A stretch of DNA of 64,000 nucleotides from an uncultured Clostridia bacterium. Lineage in GTDB: Bacteria > Bacillota > Clostridia > TANB77 > CAG-508. The DNA lies in NCBI GenBank assembly GCA_947626875.1, contig CANQTV010000001.1, positions 98,924 to 162,923 of the forward strand, read 5' to 3'. Each line of letters opens with the position of its first letter. Within the stretch, counting starts at the first letter, position 1. The notes beneath the pieces were generated by a model, which saw only the letters and a program-made list of their open reading frames with translations, made no database searches and had not been told where the DNA came from. Of the stretch, positions 5,326 through 24,347 are shown piece by piece. A program made the position numbers and the translations under genes.

Positions 5326-5519
5326 GTCTTTTACTCCTTTTATGTTTATTATTGATTGATATGATTATATCATATTATATTAATTAATTACAGCTATTTC
5401 TGCTAAAACTTGTGTATTTATGCAAAGTTTTACCCATAATTGTAACCAAAATGTGACAATTTTACCAAAATAATAATAAAAAGCACATGCCAAAATCTAG
5501 CCTGTGCTTCTTATTCTTT

Positions 5520-5564
5520 TGGTTGCGTGGGTAAGATTCAAACTCTCTACCTTCGGGTTATGAG
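5520..5564 (-). pseudogene. Displaced, diverged 3' half of tRNA-fMet (far att repeat of island 1)
   Basis: tggttgcgtgggtaagattcaaactctctaccttcgggttatgag aligns to the 3' half of the intact tRNA at 24272-24316, and 16 bp are identical (5549-5564 = 24301-24316). An acceptor-stem and a T-stem mismatch indicate decay. The original tRNA terminator hairpin lies just downstream at about 5484-5519. Confidence 0.8.
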
Positions 5565-5731: not shown

Positions 5732-6035
5732 ATGAAAATTAATGATATTTTTAAAGATGTAGAAAGTGAAAATTTATTAGAAAAATGGTTAGAATTTAGA
5801 GAGGAAGATTTATGTCATATGGAGAAAGAAGATAAAAAAACACTTGCTTAACTTTGATAATTTTGCTAAGAGAATTTTGAAAAATACTACTAAAGAAGGT
5901 TATAATTATGTTTCTAAACAATTGGAATTTATGCATGATGACTTTATTGATTATTGTTCATATTGGAATAACAAATATTATATGAATGGGTTTAGCGATG
6001 CAATTAAGTTAATTTTAAGTGGATTGAAATTATAA
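5732..6035 (+). pseudogene. Small hypothetical protein (~101 aa if joined), split by a frameshift in an A7 run
   Basis: GGAGG lies 8 nt before the ATG at 5732. Frame 1 stops at 5849-5851, and ORF 5844..6035 continues in another frame. Removing one A from the A7 run at 5834-5840 joins them. Confidence 0.45.
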
Positions 6036-6039
6036 CACC

Positions 6040-6065
6040 AAAAGGCGAGTAAATTCTCGCCTTTT
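6040..6065. terminator. Bidirectional rho-independent terminator
   Basis: aaaaggcgag-taaatt-ctcgcctttt hairpin between convergent genes, with A-run and T-run flanks. Confidence 0.7.
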
Positions 6066-6075
6066 ATAATATTAT

Positions 6076-7617
6076 TCATTCATAATTTTTTATTTTTTCA
6101 AATATGTTCTCATCAAGTTTTCTTTTTATATCTCTTATATTATTAATACTTTCATAATCAATATCAATAACTTCTAAATATTCTGCGGGGGATAATGTAA
6201 TATTTACATCATTTTCTTTTAAGTCTTTTATAAGTTCTTCAACATATTTTACTGCGTATTTTTTCTTTTCATCTATTCTTAATGGCATAAATTCATACAC
6301 GCAATCCACTCTTGACTGAAATTCACTCGGAATTTGCTGGCAAAACTCTTTTTTGCTTATATTACTTGTGAATATTATTAAAAATCCATCTAAATCATGT
6401 TCATTGCTCATCGAATCTGTAAATTTACCATCTTCAAGTAGTTCTAAGAAAAAATTAAATATTGCTTTATTTGCTTTTTCAAATTCATCACATAGTATTA
6501 ATCCTATTTTATTCTTAGATAGTTTCACAGATAATTCTCCAGATTCACATCCTACATACCCTTTAGGGCTTCCTATCAAACTATTTAGTGCATCTTGACT
6601 ACTATAATTTCCAAAGTTTATTTTTATAAAATTATCATTACCTGAATTCAAATTTTTAGCAATTATTCTCGCTACTTCTGTTTTCCCTAATCCCGTACCT
6701 CCTAATAAGAAGATTGATAATACTTTTTTTCTCTTTAGCTTATTGAGAACAATAAAATTGTCTATTTTATTAGAAAAATCTTCTTTAAATTTGTTATGTC
6801 CGAATAACTCTTCTTTAATTGCTTTTTTCATTAAAATTAATTTCTGTTCTTCAATATTTACGATTGTAGTTTTACTATTTTCTTCGTAATCTGCATCATA
6901 AGAATTATTCAACTTTATATTATTGAATAATTTATTTATTTCTTCATCATATTCAAATGTAAACGGATAATTTTCTAATACTTTTTCTTTTAGATCTCTT
7001 CTAACAATTGCATCATAGTCTTCAAAATTATTTAATAGTTGCTCAAACATATATACTGTTTCTGGGGTATGATCATTTGCCAAAACTATACTAGTAATAT
7101 CTATCAATATTTTCATTTTATTTTCTTTTATCTTTCCAATTAATTCATTATTAATTTTTGAAAAGCTTATAAATATTATTTGATTTTGTTGACAATATTC
7201 AATAACTTTATTTAATTCACTTAAATTATTGTATGTATAAATTATTTTTCTATTTATTGCTAGTTTATCTTGTATACTTTCTTCATTATTTTCTAATAAA
7301 TTTAAACATTCACTCTTATCAAATAAGTTTCTTAATAAATCCAATACGTATTCCGCATACTTTTCATCCACTACTATTTTGGTTCCACTTGTTATATTAT
7401 ATAAATTCAATTCTACTGAATATACATTAGCTTTATCATTTCTAACAAATGGAATAATATTAGTTATATCTATTATCACATTTGAATTTTCTTCTAGTAA
7501 CTCTAATGTATCTTTAAATTTGAATTGTGTAAATAAAATATCTTCTTTATCACATTTCTCTAATAATATATTAAATTCTTTTATCCCTTTATATGTATAT
7601 ATAGTCCATCTATTCAT
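6076..7617 (-). CDS. ClpB-D2-like AAA+ ATPase with duplicated N-terminal domain (DolB-like candidate)
   Basis: Walker A LLGGTGLGKTE, Walker B LILCDEFEKA, sensor-1 IIFTSN, and IPSEFQSRVDCVYEFMPL (Clp PEFLNRID-like). N-terminus has two ~125-aa repeats (TIYTYKGIKEF...IIDITNI / IIYTYNNLSEL...LIDITSI). Overlaps the upstream gene by 8 nt. Confidence 0.7.
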   Translation of the reverse strand: MNRWTIYTYKGIKEFNILLEKCDKEDILFTQFKFKDTLELLEENSNVIIDITNIIPFVRNDKANVYSVELNLYNITSGTKIVVDEKYAEYVLDLLRNLFDKSECLNLLENNEESIQDKLAINRKIIYTYNNLSELNKVIEYCQQNQIIFISFSKINNELIGKIKENKMKILIDITSIVLANDHTPETVYMFEQLLNNFEDYDAIVRRDLKEKVLENYPFTFEYDEEINKLFNNIKLNNSYDADYEENSKTTIVNIEEQKLILMKKAIKEELFGHNKFKEDFSNKIDNFIVLNKLKRKKVLSIFLLGGTGLGKTEVARIIAKNLNSGNDNFIKINFGNYSSQDALNSLIGSPKGYVGCESGELSVKLSKNKIGLILCDEFEKANKAIFNFFLELLEDGKFTDSMSNEHDLDGFLIIFTSNISKKEFCQQIPSEFQSRVDCVYEFMPLRIDEKKKYAVKYVEELIKDLKENDVNITLSPAEYLEVIDIDYESINNIRDIKRKLDENIFEKIKNYE

Positions 7618-8527
7618 TTAATAATTTCTCATCCTTTTTCCTAGAAATTTTTCTTATTAGTTTTTGATACCATTTTATCTTTATTTGTTTTTCTTCTTTA
7701 AATTCTATATTTTGTATAATACCTATCACATCAATAAAATTATATTTAGTATTTTTCTTATTATCTTCCGTTTTTATATTTTTAGTTGGTGTTTCACTAC
7801 TTTGTATTACTTTTGTTTCTACCTTTAGACTTTTTTCACCAATATTCGTAAAATATTGAAAAGTGCTATCATATATTTCTGATCCCATTACCTTTTGTTT
7901 ATATACTCCTATAATAGATACTTTTCCTATCAACAAATCATATATACTATATTTGTTTTCAAATTCATTATCTAATTCCATTGGTATTTTTAATATGATT
8001 TGATCATTAATACCATCAACTTTCCCCTTTAATACATAACAATAATCACGTAACATACTTGAAATCAAGTTGTTCATATCCAATCCTTCGACAGAAAATC
8101 CTTTTAAAGCATCTTTTCGTAATAATTGTATCTCTCGTAGATTACTTTCCTCATAAATTGATAAATGCACATTGTCAATTTTAATCAAATCTCCTTCTTT
8201 AATTCCAGTATCTTTATATTCTTTACATTTTCTTTCTATTTGCCTTAATAGAATTGATTTTGTAGTCTTTACATTTAAAGTTTCTACCATTTTATTAGAT
8301 GATGTTATAGTTTTACCCTTTTCGGTTCCTGAAATAGCTTTTATCTTAGCCAGATATTCTCCACTATCTAATGCTGCTTCTGTAGATGAACTTTTTCTCT
8401 TGAAAATTTCTTTTTTTATTCCTTTTTCCTTCTCTAACTTTTCTGGAATTATATTATTTATCATCATTGCTATTTCATATACTTTGTTAAAATTTAAATA
8501 ATATATATTAAATGATTTGTTATCCAT
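7610..8527 (-). CDS. Hypothetical protein, partner of the ClpB-like ATPase (possible DolA/DUF6414-like)
   Basis: 305 aa with no motif I can name. Translationally coupled to the AAA+ gene. The pairing resembles the Dodola two-gene architecture as I recall it. Confidence 0.45.
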   Translation of the reverse strand: MDNKSFNIYYLNFNKVYEIAMMINNIIPEKLEKEKGIKKEIFKRKSSSTEAALDSGEYLAKIKAISGTEKGKTITSSNKMVETLNVKTTKSILLRQIERKCKEYKDTGIKEGDLIKIDNVHLSIYEESNLREIQLLRKDALKGFSVEGLDMNNLISSMLRDYCYVLKGKVDGINDQIILKIPMELDNEFENKYSIYDLLIGKVSIIGVYKQKVMGSEIYDSTFQYFTNIGEKSLKVETKVIQSSETPTKNIKTEDNKKNTKYNFIDVIGIIQNIEFKEEKQIKIKWYQKLIRKISRKKDEKLLNE

Positions 8528-8546
8528 ATCTTTTCCTACTTTCCCT

Positions 8547-9368
8547 TTATAATAATCTATTATTGATATCCTTTTTTTCTATTATTTTTTCTTCTTCAAC
8601 TTCAAAGTCTATTATTCCAATATTTTCCCCGTTTTTACTAATATTAGTTGCTGTATATTTTACATTTATCACCTGTTCATACCAATTTGATAGTGCATCT
8701 TCGTAATATACTGTTATAAAAATATTATATGGTTCTTCTAAACTTTTTAAAGTAAAAAAACTATTTATTATAACCTCCTCTTCTTTATCTAAAACATATA
8801 TTGTATCTCTTCCTAAAATTCTTTGTTTAATATTTATCAAAGAATCCATTTTTATATCTACTTTTATACTTTTAACAGTATTTAACCCTACATTTTTTAT
8901 TAATATATTAAAATTATAATTAATTCCGTCATCAATATTAGTTAATATAAATTCCTCTAGTTTACTATTCTTATTTTCTTTTGAGTCTATTTTATATTTC
9001 AGTATTGGCATATTTTGTATGCGTAAATTTTGTTTATCTCTTTCAATACTATCTTCTTTGTTTCTGTTTATTTGCCATATTGTAACTATTACAAGCACAA
9101 TTGCTCCAATTACTGCTGACATAATTCCTGCCGAATAATTTGCTAAAAATGCTAACCAATTCTGAGAATTAACATTTGTAGTCCACCCCATATATGTTGG
9201 AACATTATATCTATCTAAATAATATATTACATTTGGAACTAATGTAATAAAAAATAACATAATATATAGTACTTTTTCTATATAGTCTTTACATTTTTTA
9301 TAATTATACCAACAAAAAAGTGCCATTCCTATTAATATTATTCCAACTACTACTATATTAATCAACAT
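8547..9368 (-). CDS. Membrane protein (3-4 N-terminal TM helices + soluble beta-rich C-terminal domain)
   Basis: 273 aa with hydrophobic segments at residues ~4-20, 34-50 and 80-100. It is the first gene of the operon, 19 nt upstream of the next gene. Confidence 0.55.
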   Translation of the reverse strand: MLINIVVVGIILIGMALFCWYNYKKCKDYIEKVLYIMLFFITLVPNVIYYLDRYNVPTYMGWTTNVNSQNWLAFLANYSAGIMSAVIGAIVLVIVTIWQINRNKEDSIERDKQNLRIQNMPILKYKIDSKENKNSKLEEFILTNIDDGINYNFNILIKNVGLNTVKSIKVDIKMDSLINIKQRILGRDTIYVLDKEEEVIINSFFTLKSLEEPYNIFITVYYEDALSNWYEQVINVKYTATNISKNGENIGIIDFEVEEEKIIEKKDINNRLL

Positions 9369-9492
9369 ATATTATCCTCCATTTATTTATATCATATTTA
9401 AATTGTATTTTTTGTCGAAACTTGTCTTTTATTATCAAAAAAGCAAAATAATTCTGTAATGTATAATTACTATTATTCTGCTTTTCTTTAGT

Positions 9493-10428
9493 TTATTTAT
9501 TTCCAATATAATATTTAATCATTTCTGTGTATTGATCTTGTGCGTTTAAACAAGTATCTATTAAATATCCTTTTTCTTTATTAGTTTGATATTGATTTAA
9601 TCCCCTATAAAAAAATAGTTTTTCTTTATCCAGAATAATAAATGGTACTATATTATTTTTTAAACATTCTTTAAATGCAATTATTCTACCAACTCTTCCG
9701 TTACCATCTTGAAAAGGATGAATTTTTTCAAACTTAGCATGAAATTCTATTATTTCATTAATTGTGATTTCTTTTAAAGATTCATACCATTCCAATAATT
9801 TTTTCATATCTCTTTCAACATTTTTGGGTTCTGTAGTTTTTAAACCTCCTACTTCATTTGGTAATTTTTTATATTCACCAATATTAAACCAAGCTTTTCT
9901 ACTATCTGATGTTCCTTCTTTTAAAATCTTATGAAATTCTTTTATCATTTTCTCTGTTATTTTTTTGTCTGCTATATCTAACATATAATCAACTAACTTA
10001 AAATGATTAGTTGTTTCTAAAACATCATCTAAATCTGTTATTGAATCCTTTTCTGTTAATAATGTATTAGTCTCATAAATATATCTAGTCTGGTCTTCTG
10101 TAAGTTTACTTCCTTCAATATGATTTGTATTATATGCAAAAATAACTTGTGTATTATGATATAAATTTCCTTTTAATTTCATATTTTTTTGTTCTCTTAA
10201 TACTTCTAAAATATTAATTTTAGATACATCAAAAGTATCTTCTTTTAATAACTCATCAATCGAAAGTTCAAATAATTCAGCTAATTTTTTTAATGATTCA
10301 ATATTAGGTTCTAATGTTCCCGCTTCATATTTGGAAATAGTTGCTGCCTTTACTCCTAATACTTCTGCAATTTCACTTTGAGTCATATTTTTATTTTCTC
10401 TATATGATTTTATTTTTTCTCCTAACAT
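9493..10428 (-). CDS. XRE-HTH / Fic (Fido) domain protein, class II-type
   Basis: N-terminal HTH (MTQSEIAEVLGVKAATISKYEAG). Fic motif HPFQDGNGRVGR. Upstream inhibitory-helix motif TNHIEG ([ST]xxxE[GN]). Confidence 0.85.
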   Translation of the reverse strand: MLGEKIKSYRENKNMTQSEIAEVLGVKAATISKYEAGTLEPNIESLKKLAELFELSIDELLKEDTFDVSKINILEVLREQKNMKLKGNLYHNTQVIFAYNTNHIEGSKLTEDQTRYIYETNTLLTEKDSITDLDDVLETTNHFKLVDYMLDIADKKITEKMIKEFHKILKEGTSDSRKAWFNIGEYKKLPNEVGGLKTTEPKNVERDMKKLLEWYESLKEITINEIIEFHAKFEKIHPFQDGNGRVGRIIAFKECLKNNIVPFIILDKEKLFFYRGLNQYQTNKEKGYLIDTCLNAQDQYTEMIKYYIGNK

Positions 10429-13500: not shown

Positions 13501-13725
13501 TCTTATTTCATTTAGTTTCTCTAATTGTTCTCTTAAATTATTTATTAAATCATTTTCATTTTTTATATTTAAATACTCATATGATTGTTCCTGTAATATT
13601 TTTATGAATTCACTTTCAAGTTCAGCTTCACTTTGATATGATGTTTCTTTTCTTTTTATTGCTTTATATTCTGTTAAAACTGTTGAATTATCATTTTCAG
13701 AAATAATATTTCCTTTATTTTTCAT
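10558..13725 (-). CDS. hsdR: Type I restriction enzyme R subunit
   Basis: 1055 aa with helicase motif I HTTGSGKT and motif II FDECHRSQ. Size and operon context with hsdM/hsdS fit. Confidence 0.9.
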   Translation of the reverse strand: MKNKGNIISENDNSTVLTEYKAIKRKETSYQSEAELESEFIKILQEQSYEYLNIKNENDLINNLREQLEKLNEIRFTDKEWNELFNNFIANPNDGIVEKTRKIQEDYKYPLQLENGELKNIYLLYKEKQRIHNNFVQVINQYEVETDKRKNRYDVTILINGLPMVHIELKRRGVELRQAFNQIERYQRDSFWYNSGLYNYIQIFVISNGTFTKYYSNTTRYKHLDGKKVKKSNSFEFTSYWADQNNNGICDLEDFAKTFLSKRTLLNIITKYCILTAEEDLLVMRPYQITATEKIINKIEVANNYNKYGTIEAGGYIWHTTGSGKTLTSFKTAQIASNLKYIDKVIFVVDRKDLDYQTMKEYDRFKKGCANSNANTKILEGQLEDNKSKIIITTIQKLDSFIKKNKSSKAFNKKIVFIFDECHRSQFGDMHKNITSKFKKWIIFGFTGTPIFTGNAQTRKGIMQTTGQIFGERLHTYTIVNAISDKNVLPFRYEYIGRVDIKKDVKDEKIYKIDVEKAYDNKIRIATVTKYIIEHFSTKTKNDESYVYNTLENVIEVAKNRDANQIKRTSNIKGFNSIFAVSNISMAKKYYQEFKNNKNHNLKVALIYSYGINDEVADGVFDENSETTDGLNKSDRDFLELAIEDYNKMFGTSYDTTGEKFQNYYKDVSLRMKNKEIDILIVANMFLTGFDAVTLNTLWVDKNLKYHGLIQAFSRTNRILNSVKTYGNVISFRNLEKELNDALALFGDNNASGIVLLKPYKDYYYGYEDDQGKEFKGYKELIKELKEKFPLGTVIIGEQNQKEFIKLYGAILKVTNILNSFDQFKSEQLLTERDVQDYHSTYQDIYEEFRRKSKVESTDITEDIVFEMELIKQIEVNIDYILALVKKYHESNMEDKEVLITINKAIMSSPDLRNKKDLILSFIDSLNTSSDVYEDFEKFMNSKKKEELDKIIEEENLDEEKTYKFVEKSFERGNIETEGLEISSILPPMDMFSKDRSRLKKKNVVMDRLLNFFDKFFSITSNTIFTKNNMKYKIDEDVSNNELMIAEDNEDYKVE

Positions 13726-14812
13726 CTATTTTCCCCCATTTAAAATTCTCAACAAATTTATAATATGTACTTTTAAATAATTCCTTATCATCATATGTTA
13801 ATCCTTTATATTCTACATCAGACAATTTACTATGACTATATAAATTAATAATTCTCATAAATTCTTGTTTTTTATCACTTTCTACACACTCATTCCAGTG
13901 ACGATACCCTAAAAAGTTTGATGTCTTTTCTAACAGATTTCTAAATAGATTAAAATGATATTTTTGAATATCTTCTTGATTTATTGCCCTTTCTATTTCT
14001 TCTTTAATCATTAGGTGATATCCAAATGGACTATCTGCTTTTTGATTCTTTAATTTATACACATTATCATTCTTTTTTAATATAGATGGCTTGAAATTGT
14101 AATCTCCATTTTTCCTATATTGATTATATATAACATTATAAAATAAAGCATGGTGCGTAGTAATCAAAAATTTTAATTTATGATTGTTATTGTTTTTATA
14201 TCTCTCTATTATTTCTATTAGCATCATTGCAATAGAAATAATTTTTGAATCATCTATAGATGAAACCGGATCATCCACAATAATATACTCAAGGTTATCA
14301 AAAAATTCAGTAAGTCTATCATCCTTATCCATATTTAATGTATCTACTGCTGTCTCTAAAATAGTGTAGAAAATTGACCATATAAATACACTTTCTTCTC
14401 CTTTTGATATTTTTATTCCTCTATCATAATTACTGTCTCCTGTAGCAATATTAAAAGTTATTTCACCCTTGTCCAATTCAAAACTTGGCTCTACTTTTGA
14501 ATTAAGAATGTGTGTAAAATTTTCTATGATTTGATTTTCAAGCCCCTGCTCTTTAATTAATTCTACTAACCAACAAGATGGATTAATTTTAAAAATAAAA
14601 TTATCATTATCCCATGTAAATAAATCTTCTACAAATGCATTATAACATAATATCTTGTCAGCATCCATACTATCAGTTAATGTTGTAGATAACCTCGTTT
14701 TTCCTGTTGCATTAAAGGCATATAATAAAGATATATTCTTATTTTGGTTTCTTGAATTTAAACTATACTTTATATTTTTAGCAACCGCTTCAATTGAATT
14801 AAATTCACTCAT
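13715..14812 (-). CDS. PrrC-like ABC-type ATPase / anticodon nuclease candidate embedded in the Type I R-M operon
   Basis: Walker A-like FNATGKT, Walker B/D-loop IIVDDPVSSIDDS, H-loop TTHH. C-terminal R291-x3-E295 ... H327 (FRNLLE...NLYSHS) has the same spacing as the PrrC Arg320/Glu324/His356 triad as I recall it. It sits between hsdS and hsdR, as in the prr locus. Confidence 0.6.
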   Translation of the reverse strand: MSEFNSIEAVAKNIKYSLNSRNQNKNISLLYAFNATGKTRLSTTLTDSMDADKILCYNAFVEDLFTWDNDNFIFKINPSCWLVELIKEQGLENQIIENFTHILNSKVEPSFELDKGEITFNIATGDSNYDRGIKISKGEESVFIWSIFYTILETAVDTLNMDKDDRLTEFFDNLEYIIVDDPVSSIDDSKIISIAMMLIEIIERYKNNNNHKLKFLITTHHALFYNVIYNQYRKNGDYNFKPSILKKNDNVYKLKNQKADSPFGYHLMIKEEIERAINQEDIQKYHFNLFRNLLEKTSNFLGYRHWNECVESDKKQEFMRIINLYSHSKLSDVEYKGLTYDDKELFKSTYYKFVENFKWGKIDEK

Positions 14813-15957
14813 TAAGCAATCACCTCTTTAAAATTTAATAGTTTATTTCTATAATACTCATATTGCTTCCTTCTTAATTCTATTTCAGCCGGTAATCCTT
14901 CTGAAATGTCATTTATCAATTTATCAAACTTATCTAATATGTTTACTATTCTTTTTTGTTCTTCTAATGGAGGAATATTTAAATTTATTTTTTTTATCAT
15001 TGGAGTTGTTACCTGCTGTATTCCACCATTTGTAGACTCTATTTCTGTTATATATAAAGCATAATTTAAATATTTTGCTAATACAATTTTCTCATTTGGT
15101 ATAATAGTTATTAAACGGATTATTGGAGTATATTTTCCAATCCTATAAGTATGATACCCTACTGTTCCTCTAGCTGATATGGTAACTGTATTTCCACTTA
15201 CTTTATAACTTTTACTATATCCATAAATAGCATTTTCCCCAACACCATTTGAAATTACTGGATATATATATTCACCTTTGGGCTCTTTTAATCCCTTGAT
15301 TGTATTTTCTGGCACATCTCCTCCTGCAAATATTTTTTCTGTAATTTCACATATATTATAACTCTTATATATTCTTTTATCCTTTGGCTTTAACAAATTT
15401 TCTCTCCAAAATTCATATTGATACTGTCTTGCTTCTAATTCTGCTTCTAATTCTGCTTCTAATTCTGCTTCTAATTCACTAAATCCATCAAGAATCTTTA
15501 CTATTTCTTCTTGCAATTCTATTGGCGGTACAGCTATAACTAAATTTCTAAAATCTCCTTGATTTAACTTAGGTATATTACCATGTATTAAATCAGTAAC
15601 ATCTATAGTTTGAATATAGTGAAATAAATATCGTAACATTACCCCATCAACTTCTTCAATAATATGAGCATGATTATTAACCCATATTTTACCTTCTGCC
15701 CAATTAACTATTGGAGTTCCAACTTCAGTTATTACGCTTCCATCTTCTCCTACTAATACAAACTTTCCATCAAAAATATAATCTGACACATAATCTTGTA
15801 TCCCATTTGCTCCATAATATGGATATTGACCTTTTTCTCTTTCTCCCCTTTTTACAGGCTTTCTCATATTATCTAACAAATTACAACAATCCTCTAGTTT
15901 TCTATATTCCACATCATTAGCACACATCTTTTTAATTAAATCATTAATCTTACTCAT
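14812..15957 (-). CDS. hsdS: Type I R-M specificity subunit
   Basis: 381 aa with two target-recognition halves separated by a central helical spacer containing (ELEA)x4. Overlaps hsdM and the prrC-like gene. Confidence 0.85.
   Translation of the reverse strand: MSKINDLIKKMCANDVEYRKLEDCCNLLDNMRKPVKRGEREKGQYPYYGANGIQDYVSDYIFDGKFVLVGEDGSVITEVGTPIVNWAEGKIWVNNHAHIIEEVDGVMLRYLFHYIQTIDVTDLIHGNIPKLNQGDFRNLVIAVPPIELQEEIVKILDGFSELEAELEAELEAELEARQYQYEFWRENLLKPKDKRIYKSYNICEITEKIFAGGDVPENTIKGLKEPKGEYIYPVISNGVGENAIYGYSKSYKVSGNTVTISARGTVGYHTYRIGKYTPIIRLITIIPNEKIVLAKYLNYALYITEIESTNGGIQQVTTPMIKKINLNIPPLEEQKRIVNILDKFDKLINDISEGLPAEIELRRKQYEYYRNKLLNFKEVIA
15431..15478 (-). repeat. 12-bp tandem repeat x4 (gcttctaattct) encoding (ELEA)4 in the HsdS central spacer
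   Basis: Read directly from the sequence; there are four consecutive units and the last one differs at 1 nt. Confidence 0.95.
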
Positions 15958-24271: not shown

Positions 24272-24347
24272 TGGTTGCGGGGGATAGACTCGAACTATCG
24301 ACCTTCGGGTTATGAGCCCGACGAGCTGCCAACTGCTCCACCCCGCG
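24272..24347 (-). tRNA. Initiator tRNA-fMet (CAT)
   Basis: Reverse complement is CGCGGGGTGGAGCAGTTGGCAGCTCGTCGGGCTCATAACCCGAAGGTCGATAGTTCGAGTCTATCCCCCGCAACCA. It shows the C1:A72 mismatch and three G-C pairs in the anticodon stem, both initiator hallmarks, and an encoded CCA. Confidence 0.9.

What the first reader, a model, noticed from the sequence alone, without database searches (positions are those of the whole stretch)
6076..9368. Three-gene operon: TM protein + unknown 305-aa protein + ClpB-like AAA+ with duplicated N-domain (Dodola-like variant)
The last two genes overlap by 8 nt. They pair an unannotatable 305-aa protein with a Clp D2-type AAA+ ATPase (GGTGLGKTE, LCDEFEKA, FTSN). As far as I recall, this is the architecture of the two-gene Dodola anti-phage system (DUF6414 protein + ClpB-like ATPase), whose mechanism is unknown. 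Two features go beyond that description. A 273-aa multi-TM protein is encoded 19 nt upstream in the same operon. The ATPase also has a tandemly duplicated ~125-aa N-terminal domain. The operon is on a mobile island next to a Type I R-M and a Fic protein, which fits a defence role.
Basis: partly seen in the sequence, partly recalled or inferred. Interest (0 to 1): 0.6.

Follow-up and report, generated by a model that had tools for sequence, protein, structure and literature searches.

The report
Dodola-related defence pair beside an unrelated membrane gene
Two of the three genes are an ordinary copy of an already catalogued but untested candidate anti-phage pair (PADLOC PDC-M37, a distant cousin of Dodola), and the membrane-protein gene upstream is not part of it but marks one edge of a slot where mobile elements of this gut bacterium swap defence genes.

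Summary
In detail: three co-oriented minus-strand genes (TM 8547-9368, A 7610-8527, B 6076-7617), a 19-nt gap, an 8-nt overlap, intact Clp-D2 motifs and a real N-domain duplication in B.

A and B match PADLOC's candidate system PDC-M37 over their full length (2.8e-81 and 1e-139). The 518-position B model already covers both N-domain copies. A itself fails DUF6414/DolA, but the A family is a remote DolA relative: 25 of 108 cluster representatives hit DolA, and hhalign gives E 2.5e-4.

The TM gene is not a third subunit. None of 80 A-B loci carries a homologue. TM homologues instead precede Gabija, DRT8, AbiD and other cargo. Together with a convergent ~97-aa gene they frame a variable defence slot in 8 of 12 contexts.

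Three further results: 27% of A-family clusters carry their own fused N-terminal TM anchor; the B family keeps the Clp pore-loop tyrosine, which three DolB sequences lack; and A has a confident fold with no match in PDB or BFVD.

The mechanism is inferred only: an AAA+ unfoldase acting on, or through, its partner A. This is a new member of a known candidate kind, of moderate interest.

The parts
9425..9492 (-). Hairpin followed by U6 between the HTH-Fic gene and the TM gene. It is the likely terminator of the upstream unit.
   Evidence: RNA fold: -16.9 kcal/mol, z -6.45, none of 200 shuffles as good. Sequence read.
9391..9418 (-). Best promoter-like site upstream of the TM gene (TCGACA-16-TATGAT), followed by a GGAGG ribosome-binding site.
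   Evidence: Consensus scan, 10 of 12 matches. The number of promoter-like sites in the region is no higher than in shuffles, so this is weak evidence. Sequence read.
8547..9368 (-). 273-aa membrane protein with three predicted N-terminal TM helices and a beta-rich C-terminal domain. It forms the 5' edge of a variable defence-cargo slot and is not part of PDC-M37.
   Evidence: No Pfam, NCBIfam or PADLOC family; a weak hit to phrog_20636. Only 110 homologues. 0 of 80 A-B loci carry it.
7610..8527 (-). PDC-M37A: a 305-aa soluble protein of unknown activity and a remote relative of DolA/DUF6414.
   Evidence: PDC-M37A 2.8e-81 over residues 4-278. No Pfam match. AF2 pLDDT 84, pTM 0.73. No fold match in PDB or BFVD. 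hhalign against DolA gives E 2.5e-4. 25 of 108 family representatives hit DolA.
7252..7617 (-). B residues 1-122: the first copy of the alpha/beta N-domain. This copy is absent from the short-form B proteins.
   Evidence: The short PADLOC model PDLC04606 starts at residue 125.
6868..7251 (-). B residues 123-250: the second copy of the N-domain, present in all B homologues.
6076..6867 (-). B residues 251-513: a ClpA/ClpB D2-type AAA+ module with all catalytic motifs and the GYVG pore loop.
   Evidence: AAA_2 1.8e-24. The ClpB model TIGR03346 matches only its positions 548-826. Motifs are conserved across 73 homologues.
6034..6073 (.). GC-rich hairpin with T-runs on both strands. It is the likely two-way terminator shared by B and the convergent small gene.
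   Evidence: RNA fold: -15.7 kcal/mol, z -4.78. Sequence read.
5732..6035 (+). Convergent ~100-aa gene forming the 3' edge of the cargo slot. Here it is split by a frameshift at an A7 run.
   Evidence: Translation in frames 2 and 0. HMM hit 6.8e-27 to the family; intact copies occur in L014, L001, L005, L109 and L121. No Pfam family.
5517..5564 (.). Island end: a 48-nt copy of the 3' half of tRNA-Met. The intact gene lies at 24272-24347.
   Evidence: Direct repeat D3, 83% identity. tRNA found.

Best explanation
Genes A (7610-8527) and B (6076-7617) are a complete copy of the two-gene module that PADLOC lists as candidate defence system PDC-M37. That module is a distant sister of the validated Dodola system (DolA/DUF6414 plus DolB).

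Shown for B: it is a single-ring ClpA/B D2-type AAA+ ATPase with every catalytic motif and the substrate-threading pore-loop tyrosine. One or two degenerate alpha/beta N-domains precede the ATPase; this clade has two.

Shown for A: it is a well-folded protein with no recognisable fold. It is always encoded immediately upstream of B, usually with overlapping codons, and is once fused to B.

Inferred mechanism: B forms a ring that binds A and uses ATP-driven threading either to switch A from a latent to an active state on infection, or to unfold a phage protein that A presents. In about a quarter of the family A is membrane-anchored, so the membrane is a likely site of action.

The upstream TM gene is probably co-transcribed but is not a subunit of the pair. 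With a convergent ~97-aa gene it forms the conserved frame of a slot in which mobile elements of this gut genus carry interchangeable defence cargo. PDC-M37 is the cargo here. The whole lies at the attR end of an 18.8-kb tRNA-Met island.

The confidence given is for identity and architecture. The mechanism alone deserves about 0.3.
For: Identity of the pair.
- A scores 2.8e-81 to PDC-M37A and B scores 1e-139 to PDC-M37B, both over the full length.
- All 108 cluster representatives of the A family hit PDC-M37A.

Link to Dodola.
- B hits DolB at 6e-30. It is 27% identical to a genuine DolB, E 1e-15.
- 25 of 108 A relatives hit PADLOC DolA (best 7e-9) and 2 hit Pfam DUF6414.
- P0377 bridges the two families: E 4e-40 to A and 2.8e-6 to DolA over the full length.
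- hhalign gives E 2.5e-4 over 132 collinear columns.
- Genuine Dodola pairs show the same 8-nt overlap.
- DefenseFinder calls B. cereus PDC-M37 pairs Dodola (PMC11811056 supplement).

A-B coupling.
- 74 of 80 loci have B directly downstream of A, with gaps of -74 to +9 nt. There is one A-B fusion.

B as an active motor.
- The pore loop GY[IV]G is kept in 70 of 73 homologues and FTSN in 73 of 73. Walker A, Walker B and the Arg finger are conserved.

Membrane link.
- 25 of 108 A clusters carry 2-5 fused TM helices, and 4 more carry one. One such protein is followed directly by B.

TM gene is separate.
- 0 of 80 A-B loci hold a TM homologue. Only 1 of 76 has any multi-TM ORF just upstream.
- A occurs in 1 of 61 related genomes and TM in 6 of 61.
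- TM homologues precede PDC-S48+DRT8+PDC-S06, Gabija, a Ppl-like ATPase, and PDC-S57+AbiD.
- The frame of TM, cargo and convergent 97-aa gene is found in 8 of 12 contexts.

Transcription unit.
- Strong hairpins flank TM-A-B on both sides.
Against: - No PDC-M37 system has been tested against phage. The one paper that mentions it calls it an unpublished candidate.
- The Dodola mechanism is still unknown (PMC13660305).
- The window's own A is below threshold for DolA and DUF6414. The profile-profile probability is only 43%.
- A's fold gives no functional clue.
- The A-B physical interaction rests on gene order and a single fusion.
- The trio TM-A-B moves as one ~3.95-kb block at ~90% identity between two contexts. 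The 19-nt spacing makes co-transcription likely, so a functional contribution of TM in this clade cannot be excluded.
Confidence: 0.72

Rival explanations
1. This is a genuine three-component system. The TM protein would be a functional partner of A-B in this clade. It might supply in trans the membrane anchoring that other family members carry fused to A, or act as the membrane effector.
For: - 19-nt spacing and one apparent transcription unit bounded by terminators.
- TM-A-B is kept together at ~90% nucleotide identity in a second context, L014, L016 and L017.
- 27% of A-family clusters have a fused TM anchor, so membrane association recurs in the family.
Against: - 0 of 80 A-B loci have a TM homologue, and only 1 of 76 has any multi-TM ORF just upstream.
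- The next closest pair, 70% identical, lacks it.
- The TM family sits in front of at least six unrelated cargos.
- There is no similarity between this TM protein and the fused anchors: hhalign E 0.13.
- One trio copy has a truncated TM gene (L015).
Confidence: 0.12
2. The TM protein is itself a stand-alone defence or superinfection-exclusion gene that merely clusters with other defence genes. It would be neither a passive slot flank nor a PDC-M37 subunit.
For: - It is always embedded among defence genes on mobile elements.
- It has its own promoter-like site and ribosome-binding site.
- Its C-terminal domain weakly matches a phage protein family, phrog_20636, at 7.8e-4.
- Small membrane proteins are classic Abi and Sie effectors. 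This last point rests on my own knowledge.
Against: - No PADLOC model matches it.
- Its fixed position at the 5' edge, paired with a convergent 97-aa gene at the other edge in 8 of 12 contexts, looks more like a structural frame of an element.
- It is a pseudogene in two genomes whose cargo appears intact.
Confidence: 0.2
3. A-B is not an anti-phage system. It would be an addiction or stability module, or a proteostasis module, of mobile elements. A toxic protein A would be held in check by the unfoldase B.
For: - The pair is found on islands and on four plasmids and on no phage record.
- No phage test exists for PDC-M37.
Against: - It lies in defence neighbourhoods here (Type I R-M, an HTH-Fic gene matching PDC-S04) and in relatives.
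- It is kin to Dodola. Papers read here cite Dodola as protecting B. subtilis against phage SPP1 (PMC11514479).
- Distribution is patchy: 1 of 61 related genomes.
Confidence: 0.1

Closest known systems
PADLOC candidate system PDC-M37 (PDC-M37A + PDC-M37B)
   Same: Both proteins match the models end to end (2.8e-81 and 1e-139). Gene order and adjacency are the same. The long B model of 518 positions already includes the duplicated N-domain.
   Different: Nothing of substance: this is a member. The system is only a bioinformatic candidate, described as unpublished and untested (PMC11811056).
Dodola (DolA, DUF6414/PF19952 + DolB, ClpB-like ATPase)
   Same: - Two genes in the same order with the same 8-nt start/stop overlap.
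- B resembles DolB: 6e-30 and 27% identity.
- The A family is linked to DolA by bridging sequences and by hhalign.
- DefenseFinder labels some PDC-M37 pairs Dodola.
- The mechanism is unknown for both.
   Different: - The window's A does not reach the DUF6414 or DolA thresholds.
- B has a second N-domain copy.
- The B family keeps the GY[IV]G pore loop. The three DolB sequences examined lack it through a 5-residue deletion.
- Part of the A family carries fused TM anchors. Two over-length DolA-family hits that I checked had none.
ClpB/ClpA/ClpV class AAA+ unfoldases (D2 ring)
   Same: Walker A and B, sensor-1, Arg finger, sensor-2 and the pore-loop tyrosine are present and conserved. The Pfam family is AAA_2.
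   Different: - B has only one AAA+ module. It scores 114.7 bits against a ClpB cut-off of 1232 and matches only model positions 548-826.
- It has no Clp N-domain, no D1 ring and no coiled-coil M-domain.
- Instead it has one or two degenerate alpha/beta domains without Walker motifs. These resemble AAA+ cores only weakly: Foldseek best E 1.7e-3, and Vps4 at rmsd 4.1 over 121 columns.
Defence hotspots flanked by conserved genes in mobile elements (for example P2/P4 satellite hotspots; comparison from my own knowledge)
   Same: Two conserved flanking genes, TM and the convergent ~97-aa gene, bracket interchangeable defence cargo: PDC-M37, Gabija, DRT8+PDC-S06+PDC-S48, a Ppl-like ATPase, and AbiD+PDC-S57.
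   Different: - The flanks here are an uncharacterised membrane protein and an uncharacterised small protein.
- The frame occurs in at least two element types, a tRNA-Met island with a DnaC-like loader and a relaxase/TnpV element.
- It appears confined to one gut genus and its metagenomic relatives.

Membership tests
PDC-M37 (PADLOC candidate) | Protein A matches a PDC-M37A profile. | tested here: met
   PDLC04602 at 2.8e-81, residues 4-278 on positions 3-276 of 277.
PDC-M37 (PADLOC candidate) | Protein B matches a PDC-M37B profile. | tested here: met
   PDLC04605 at 1e-139, residues 1-510 on positions 1-512 of 518.
PDC-M37 (PADLOC candidate) | A and B are adjacent and co-oriented. | tested here: met
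   8-nt overlap. The same arrangement holds in 74 of 80 relatives.
PDC-M37 (PADLOC candidate) | Anti-phage activity. | not testable with these tools
   No experimental report was found. The only paper mentioning it calls it an unpublished candidate.
Dodola | First protein belongs to DUF6414 (PF19952, cut-off 25 bits). | tested here: not met
   No Pfam hit for A at E <= 0.1. No PF19952 hit anywhere in the genome. 2 of 108 family representatives do reach E 5e-6.
Dodola | First protein matches the PADLOC DolA model. | tested here: not met
   No hit for the window's A. 25 of 108 relatives hit it, best 7e-9. P0377 hits at 2.8e-6 over the full length. hhalign between the two families gives E 2.5e-4, probability 43%.
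Dodola | Second protein is a ClpB-like ATPase matching DolB. | tested here: met
   DolB PDLC03838 at 6.4e-30, residues 169-510. This is much weaker than the PDC-M37B match.
Dodola | The pair is called Dodola by DefenseFinder. | not testable with these tools
   DefenseFinder is not available here. In B. cereus the same protein pairs are called Dodola by DefenseFinder and PDC-M37 by PADLOC.
ClpB/ClpA chaperones proper | Two AAA+ rings (D1 and D2) with a Clp N-domain, and an M-domain in ClpB. | tested here: not met
   TIGR03346 scores 114.7 bits against a cut-off of 1232, and only model positions 548-826 are matched. The N-region is two alpha/beta domains without Walker motifs.
ClpB/ClpA chaperones proper | D2-type catalytic motifs and the pore-loop tyrosine. 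| tested here: met
   K312, D377/E378, N419, R436, R495 and Y354 were read from the sequence. They are conserved in 73 homologues.

The most novel reading that the evidence does not exclude
The TM gene and the convergent ~97-aa gene are more than passive flanks. They would form a shared chassis for defence cargo, for example a membrane effector or sensor plus a small regulator, that works with whichever cargo sits between them. For PDC-M37 the TM protein would supply in trans the membrane anchoring that 27% of A-family proteins carry in cis. That would make this a modular defence architecture not described before, and it would give a first handle on where Dodola-type systems act.
Probability: 0.1. 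Interest if true: 0.7.

Novelty: new member of a known kind. Interest (0 to 1): 0.35.

Why it matters
The finding itself is ordinary: a catalogued candidate system on a defence island. Four by-products are useful.

1. PDC-M37 and Dodola can now be treated as two branches of one superfamily. Anything learned about one informs the other.
2. There is a concrete, testable difference between the branches. The Clp pore-loop tyrosine is kept in the PDC-M37 B proteins and deleted in the DolB sequences examined. This bears on whether these ATPases thread substrates.
3. Membrane-anchored variants of A point to the membrane as a possible site of action.
4. The frame formed by the TM gene and the 97-aa gene is a ready-made bait for finding new defence genes in gut Clostridia. 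Several cargos between the flanks have no match in PADLOC or Pfam.

Tried and rejected
- **Fold of A.** Foldseek found nothing against PDB (best E 0.5) or BFVD (best E 0.24). A profile search of PDB sequences also found nothing.
- **A as a beta-pore former.** The model has a 20+20-residue beta-hairpin (residues 30-83). It draws weak local matches to haemolysin and lysenin pore stems. The hairpin is rich in Lys, Glu and Ser, is not amphipathic, and has the lowest pLDDT of the model. Rejected.
- **A as a PD-(D/E)xK nuclease.** The idea came from D161 and E190-x-K192. K192 is not conserved across the family and no nuclease fold is matched. Rejected.
- **The TM protein as a split-off of the fused TM anchors of other A proteins.** hhalign gives E 0.13. 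Rejected.
- **Direct BLASTP of A against DolA.** E 0.03 over 35 residues, inconclusive on its own. hhalign with only close A homologues gave E 0.024, which is also inconclusive.
- **The search for related loci with the diverse alignment A1.** It failed because no stretch was conserved enough. I repeated it with the closer set A2.
- **One MAFFT run** hit the time limit.
- **CGG codons.** This genome is reported to recode CGG. There are no CGG codons in TM, A, B, Fic or the R-M genes, so the reading frames are unaffected.
Full report
**Observation**

- The TM stop and the A start are 19 nt apart, with an AGGAAA-type ribosome-binding site. A and B overlap by ATGAATAG.
- B carries Walker A GGTGLGKTE (K312), Walker B LILCDE (D377/E378) and sensor-1 FTSN.
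- Pfam gives AAA_2 at 1.8e-24. The ClpB and ClpA equivalog models match only through their D2 halves and far below cut-off.
- The N-terminal duplication is real. Residues 2-111 against 124-235 give 32% identity, E 4e-8.
- Strong hairpins with U-runs lie just upstream of the TM promoter region (9425-9492, -16.9 kcal/mol, z -6.5) and just after B (6034-6073, -15.7 kcal/mol, z -4.8). TM-A-B therefore looks like one transcription unit.

**Setting**

The genes lie at one end of an integrative island.
- tRNA-Met is at 24272-24347. A 48-nt copy of its 3' half, 83% identical, is at 5517-5564.
- Between them are an integrase, DUF4160 and DUF6076 proteins, a phage replisome organiser and a DnaC-like loader. 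There is also a Type I R-M operon with an extra 365-aa gene, and an HTH-Fic protein.
- HTH-Fic matches PADLOC PDC-S04 at 1.7e-106 and SoFic at 5e-24.
- The host is a 1.35-Mb, ~25% GC gut Clostridia MAG. It is reported to recode CGG, but none of these genes contains CGG.

**What A and B are**

PADLOC profiles identify them as PDC-M37A (2.8e-81, full length) and PDC-M37B (1e-139, residues 1-510 on positions 1-512 of 518).
- The DolB model also matches B, but at 6.4e-30. A shorter PDC-M37B model of 390 positions aligns from residue 125 on.
- A has no Pfam, NCBIfam or PHROG family and no DolA hit. DUF6414 (PF19952) finds nothing in the whole genome.
- PDC-M37 is mentioned in one paper of the library, as an unpublished PADLOC candidate. 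That paper's supplement shows that the same B. cereus protein pairs are called Dodola by DefenseFinder and PDC-M37 by PADLOC.
- Public annotation of a plasmid copy (Listeria seeligeri pLIS4) reads "hypothetical protein" plus "AAA family ATPase".

**Is A related to DolA?**

I fetched a genuine Dodola locus, L026, with DolA 283 aa and DolB 377 aa.
- BLASTP of A against DolA is marginal: E 0.03 over 35 residues.
- Profile-profile comparison improves as the A profile becomes more diverse. It gives E 0.024 with 120 close homologues. With 108 cluster representatives from the 1.84-billion-protein library it gives E 2.5e-4, probability 43%, over 132 collinear columns (75-217 against 87-231).
- The clearest result comes from scanning each of those 108 representatives on its own. 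All 108 hit PDC-M37A, 25 also hit PADLOC DolA (best 7e-9), and 2 hit Pfam DUF6414 (5e-6).
- One bridge is P0377. It scores E 4e-40 to the window's A and 2.8e-6 to DolA over positions 22-253 of 258.
- Genuine Dodola pairs have the same gene order and the same 8-nt overlap.

I conclude that PDC-M37 and Dodola are two branches of one superfamily. The window's A itself fails the Dodola membership tests.

**Family anatomy**

In 80 reference-genome loci encoding an A relative (Bacillota, Bacteroidota, Gastranaerophilales), 74 have a B homologue. Nearly all lie directly downstream, with gaps of -74 to +9 nt. The exceptions are mostly contig ends, plus one locus (L061) where A and B are 2.5 kb apart. 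In one case A and B form a single 674-aa ORF (Flavobacterium covae, L098).
- B comes in two sizes. 45 of 73 are about 490-533 aa and carry both N-domain copies. The rest are about 386-427 aa and carry only the second copy. The duplication is therefore a clade trait that the PADLOC models already capture.
- Across the 73 B proteins the pore loop GY[IV]G (70 of 73), FTSN (73 of 73), Walker A and B and the Arg finger are conserved.
- Three DolB sequences from separate Dodola loci lack the pore loop through a 5-residue deletion. This is a small sample.

**Structure**

- AlphaFold2 on A with the 108-sequence alignment gives pLDDT 84 and pTM 0.73. The fold is mixed alpha/beta with a long, lower-confidence beta-hairpin at residues 30-83. 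Foldseek finds no match in PDB or BFVD. No PDB sequence is related.
- The N-region of B gives pLDDT 87 and pTM 0.83. It folds as two equivalent five-stranded alpha/beta domains.
- The best PDB matches to this N-region are AAA+ and RecA-like cores: FtsH at E 1.7e-3, Vps4 at probability 1.0 and rmsd 4.1 over 121 columns, Cdc48, ClpX and RFC. None passes E 1e-3.
- The repeats have no P-loop. Each keeps a hhhD-x-[TS] motif (IDIT) at the end of its third strand. Reading them as degenerate nucleotide-binding-like domains is plausible but not shown.

**An unexpected point**

25 of the 108 A-family clusters, plus 4 with a single helix, carry an N-terminal extension with 2-5 predicted TM helices. One of them, P0419, is followed directly by a B homologue. 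Membrane anchoring of A therefore recurs in the family.

**The TM gene**

It has only 110 homologues, against more than 835 for A.
- It is absent from all 80 A-B loci (phmmer E <= 1). Only 1 of 76 evaluable loci has any ORF with two or more TM helices just upstream of A.
- Among 61 related genomes, A occurs only in this one. TM occurs in six, five of them without A.
- Across 399 genomes of the class, TM is found only in this genus.
- The TM-A-B trio is kept only in copies with A at least 93% identical (L014, L016, L017; TM is truncated in L015). Those copies share one ~3.95-kb block at ~90% nucleotide identity with window 9502-5550. The next closest pair, 70% identical, has no TM gene.
- TM homologues at 33-65% identity stand in front of quite different cargo:
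  - PDC-S48 DEDDh exonuclease + DRT8 + PDC-S06;
  - GajA + GajB, after a DpnII R-M;
  - a Ppl-like AAA_23 ATPase;
  - PDC-S57 + a metallophosphoesterase + AbiD;
  - others, next to HinfI R-M or a methyltransferase.
- In 8 of 12 distinct contexts the far end of the cargo is marked by a convergent ~97-100-aa gene of one conserved family with no Pfam match. In the window this gene lies at 5732-6035 and is split by a frameshift at an A7 run.
- The simplest reading is that TM and the small gene frame a slot for exchangeable defence cargo in mobile elements of this lineage.
- The TM protein shows no similarity to the fused anchors of other A proteins (hhalign E 0.13).

**How it most likely works**

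Shown:
- B has everything a Clp-type threading motor needs.
- A and B are tightly coupled genetically.
- Part of the A family is membrane-anchored.
- The pair lives in defence islands and on plasmids and is not found in phage records.

Inferred:
- B assembles as a ring.
- Its N-domains bind A, a phage cue, or both.
- ATP-driven threading either remodels A into an active, possibly membrane-directed, effector, giving an abortive-infection outcome, or unfolds a phage protein that A presents.

I favour the first version, at about 0.3. A is the conserved, family-specific partner, and it has a flexible hairpin loop that a pore could engage. I cannot separate the two versions computationally. Papers up to July 2026 still describe the Dodola mechanism as unknown.

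**Verdict**

The pair is a new member of a known candidate kind, PDC-M37 in the Dodola superfamily. The two features said to go beyond the known description do not hold up: the duplication is already in the model, and the TM gene belongs to the surrounding slot rather than to the system. Interest is moderate to low for the finding itself. The cargo-slot frame and the pore-loop contrast with DolB are the parts worth following.

Noticed in passing
window 5732-6035 (+): A ~100-aa gene convergent with B is split by a frameshift at an A7 run near 5845. Intact homologues of 96-100 aa, with no Pfam family, lie at the far end of the cargo in L014, L001, L005, L109 and L121.
   Followed up: partly
L001 5998-12263; L005 5989-10480; L109 4977-8964; L121 1778-5511; L123 6239-12954; L120 3078-10433: The TM gene and the convergent ~97-aa gene bracket different defence cargos: PDC-S48+DRT8+PDC-S06; Gabija; a Ppl-like ATPase; PDC-S57+phosphoesterase+AbiD; and unknown genes. 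This looks like a defence-cargo slot specific to this gut genus. Some cargo genes have no PADLOC or Pfam match, for example the L120 459-aa protein. An unmatched 350-aa protein also lies downstream of the TM gene in L115, where no convergent small gene was detected.
   Followed up: partly
proteins P0414-P0491 (A-family representatives); L118 1508-2857: About a quarter of PDC-M37A clusters have 2-5 N-terminal TM helices fused to the A domain. One of them is followed directly by a 533-aa B homologue.
   Followed up: partly
L026 2297-3430; L129 3818-4945; L131 3839-4972: Three genuine DolB proteins lack the Clp pore loop GY[IV]G through a 5-residue deletion. The PDC-M37 B proteins, long and short, keep it.
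   Followed up: partly
L098 5004-7028 (Flavobacterium covae): A and B are encoded as one 674-aa ORF. This is either a natural fusion or a sequencing frameshift.
   Followed up: no
L061 (Amphibacillus sp. Q70), between 5858 and 8425: The A and B homologues are separated by about 2.5 kb, probably an insertion.
   Followed up: no
window 9493-10428 (-): The HTH-Fic protein matches PADLOC PDC-S04 (1.7e-106) and SoFic (5e-24). A similar-looking 311-aa protein sits inside the TM-framed slot of a related genome (L120 5853-6788); I judged this from its N-terminal sequence only and did not align it.
   Followed up: no
window 13715-14812 (-): A 365-aa gene is embedded in the Type I R-M operon between hsdS and hsdR. 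It has no Pfam family but a strong match to phrog_23661 (3.9e-87).
   Followed up: no
window 15430-15477: A 12-nt unit is repeated in perfect tandem inside hsdS.
   Followed up: no
L014 685-5030: In the second context of the TM-A-B block, the upstream neighbours are a ubiquitin-like conjugation set (Multi_ubiq, ThiF-type E1, BubE) and an AAA_14/DUF4143 ATPase. This is a different defence cargo set that ends with the same TM-A-B block.
   Followed up: no
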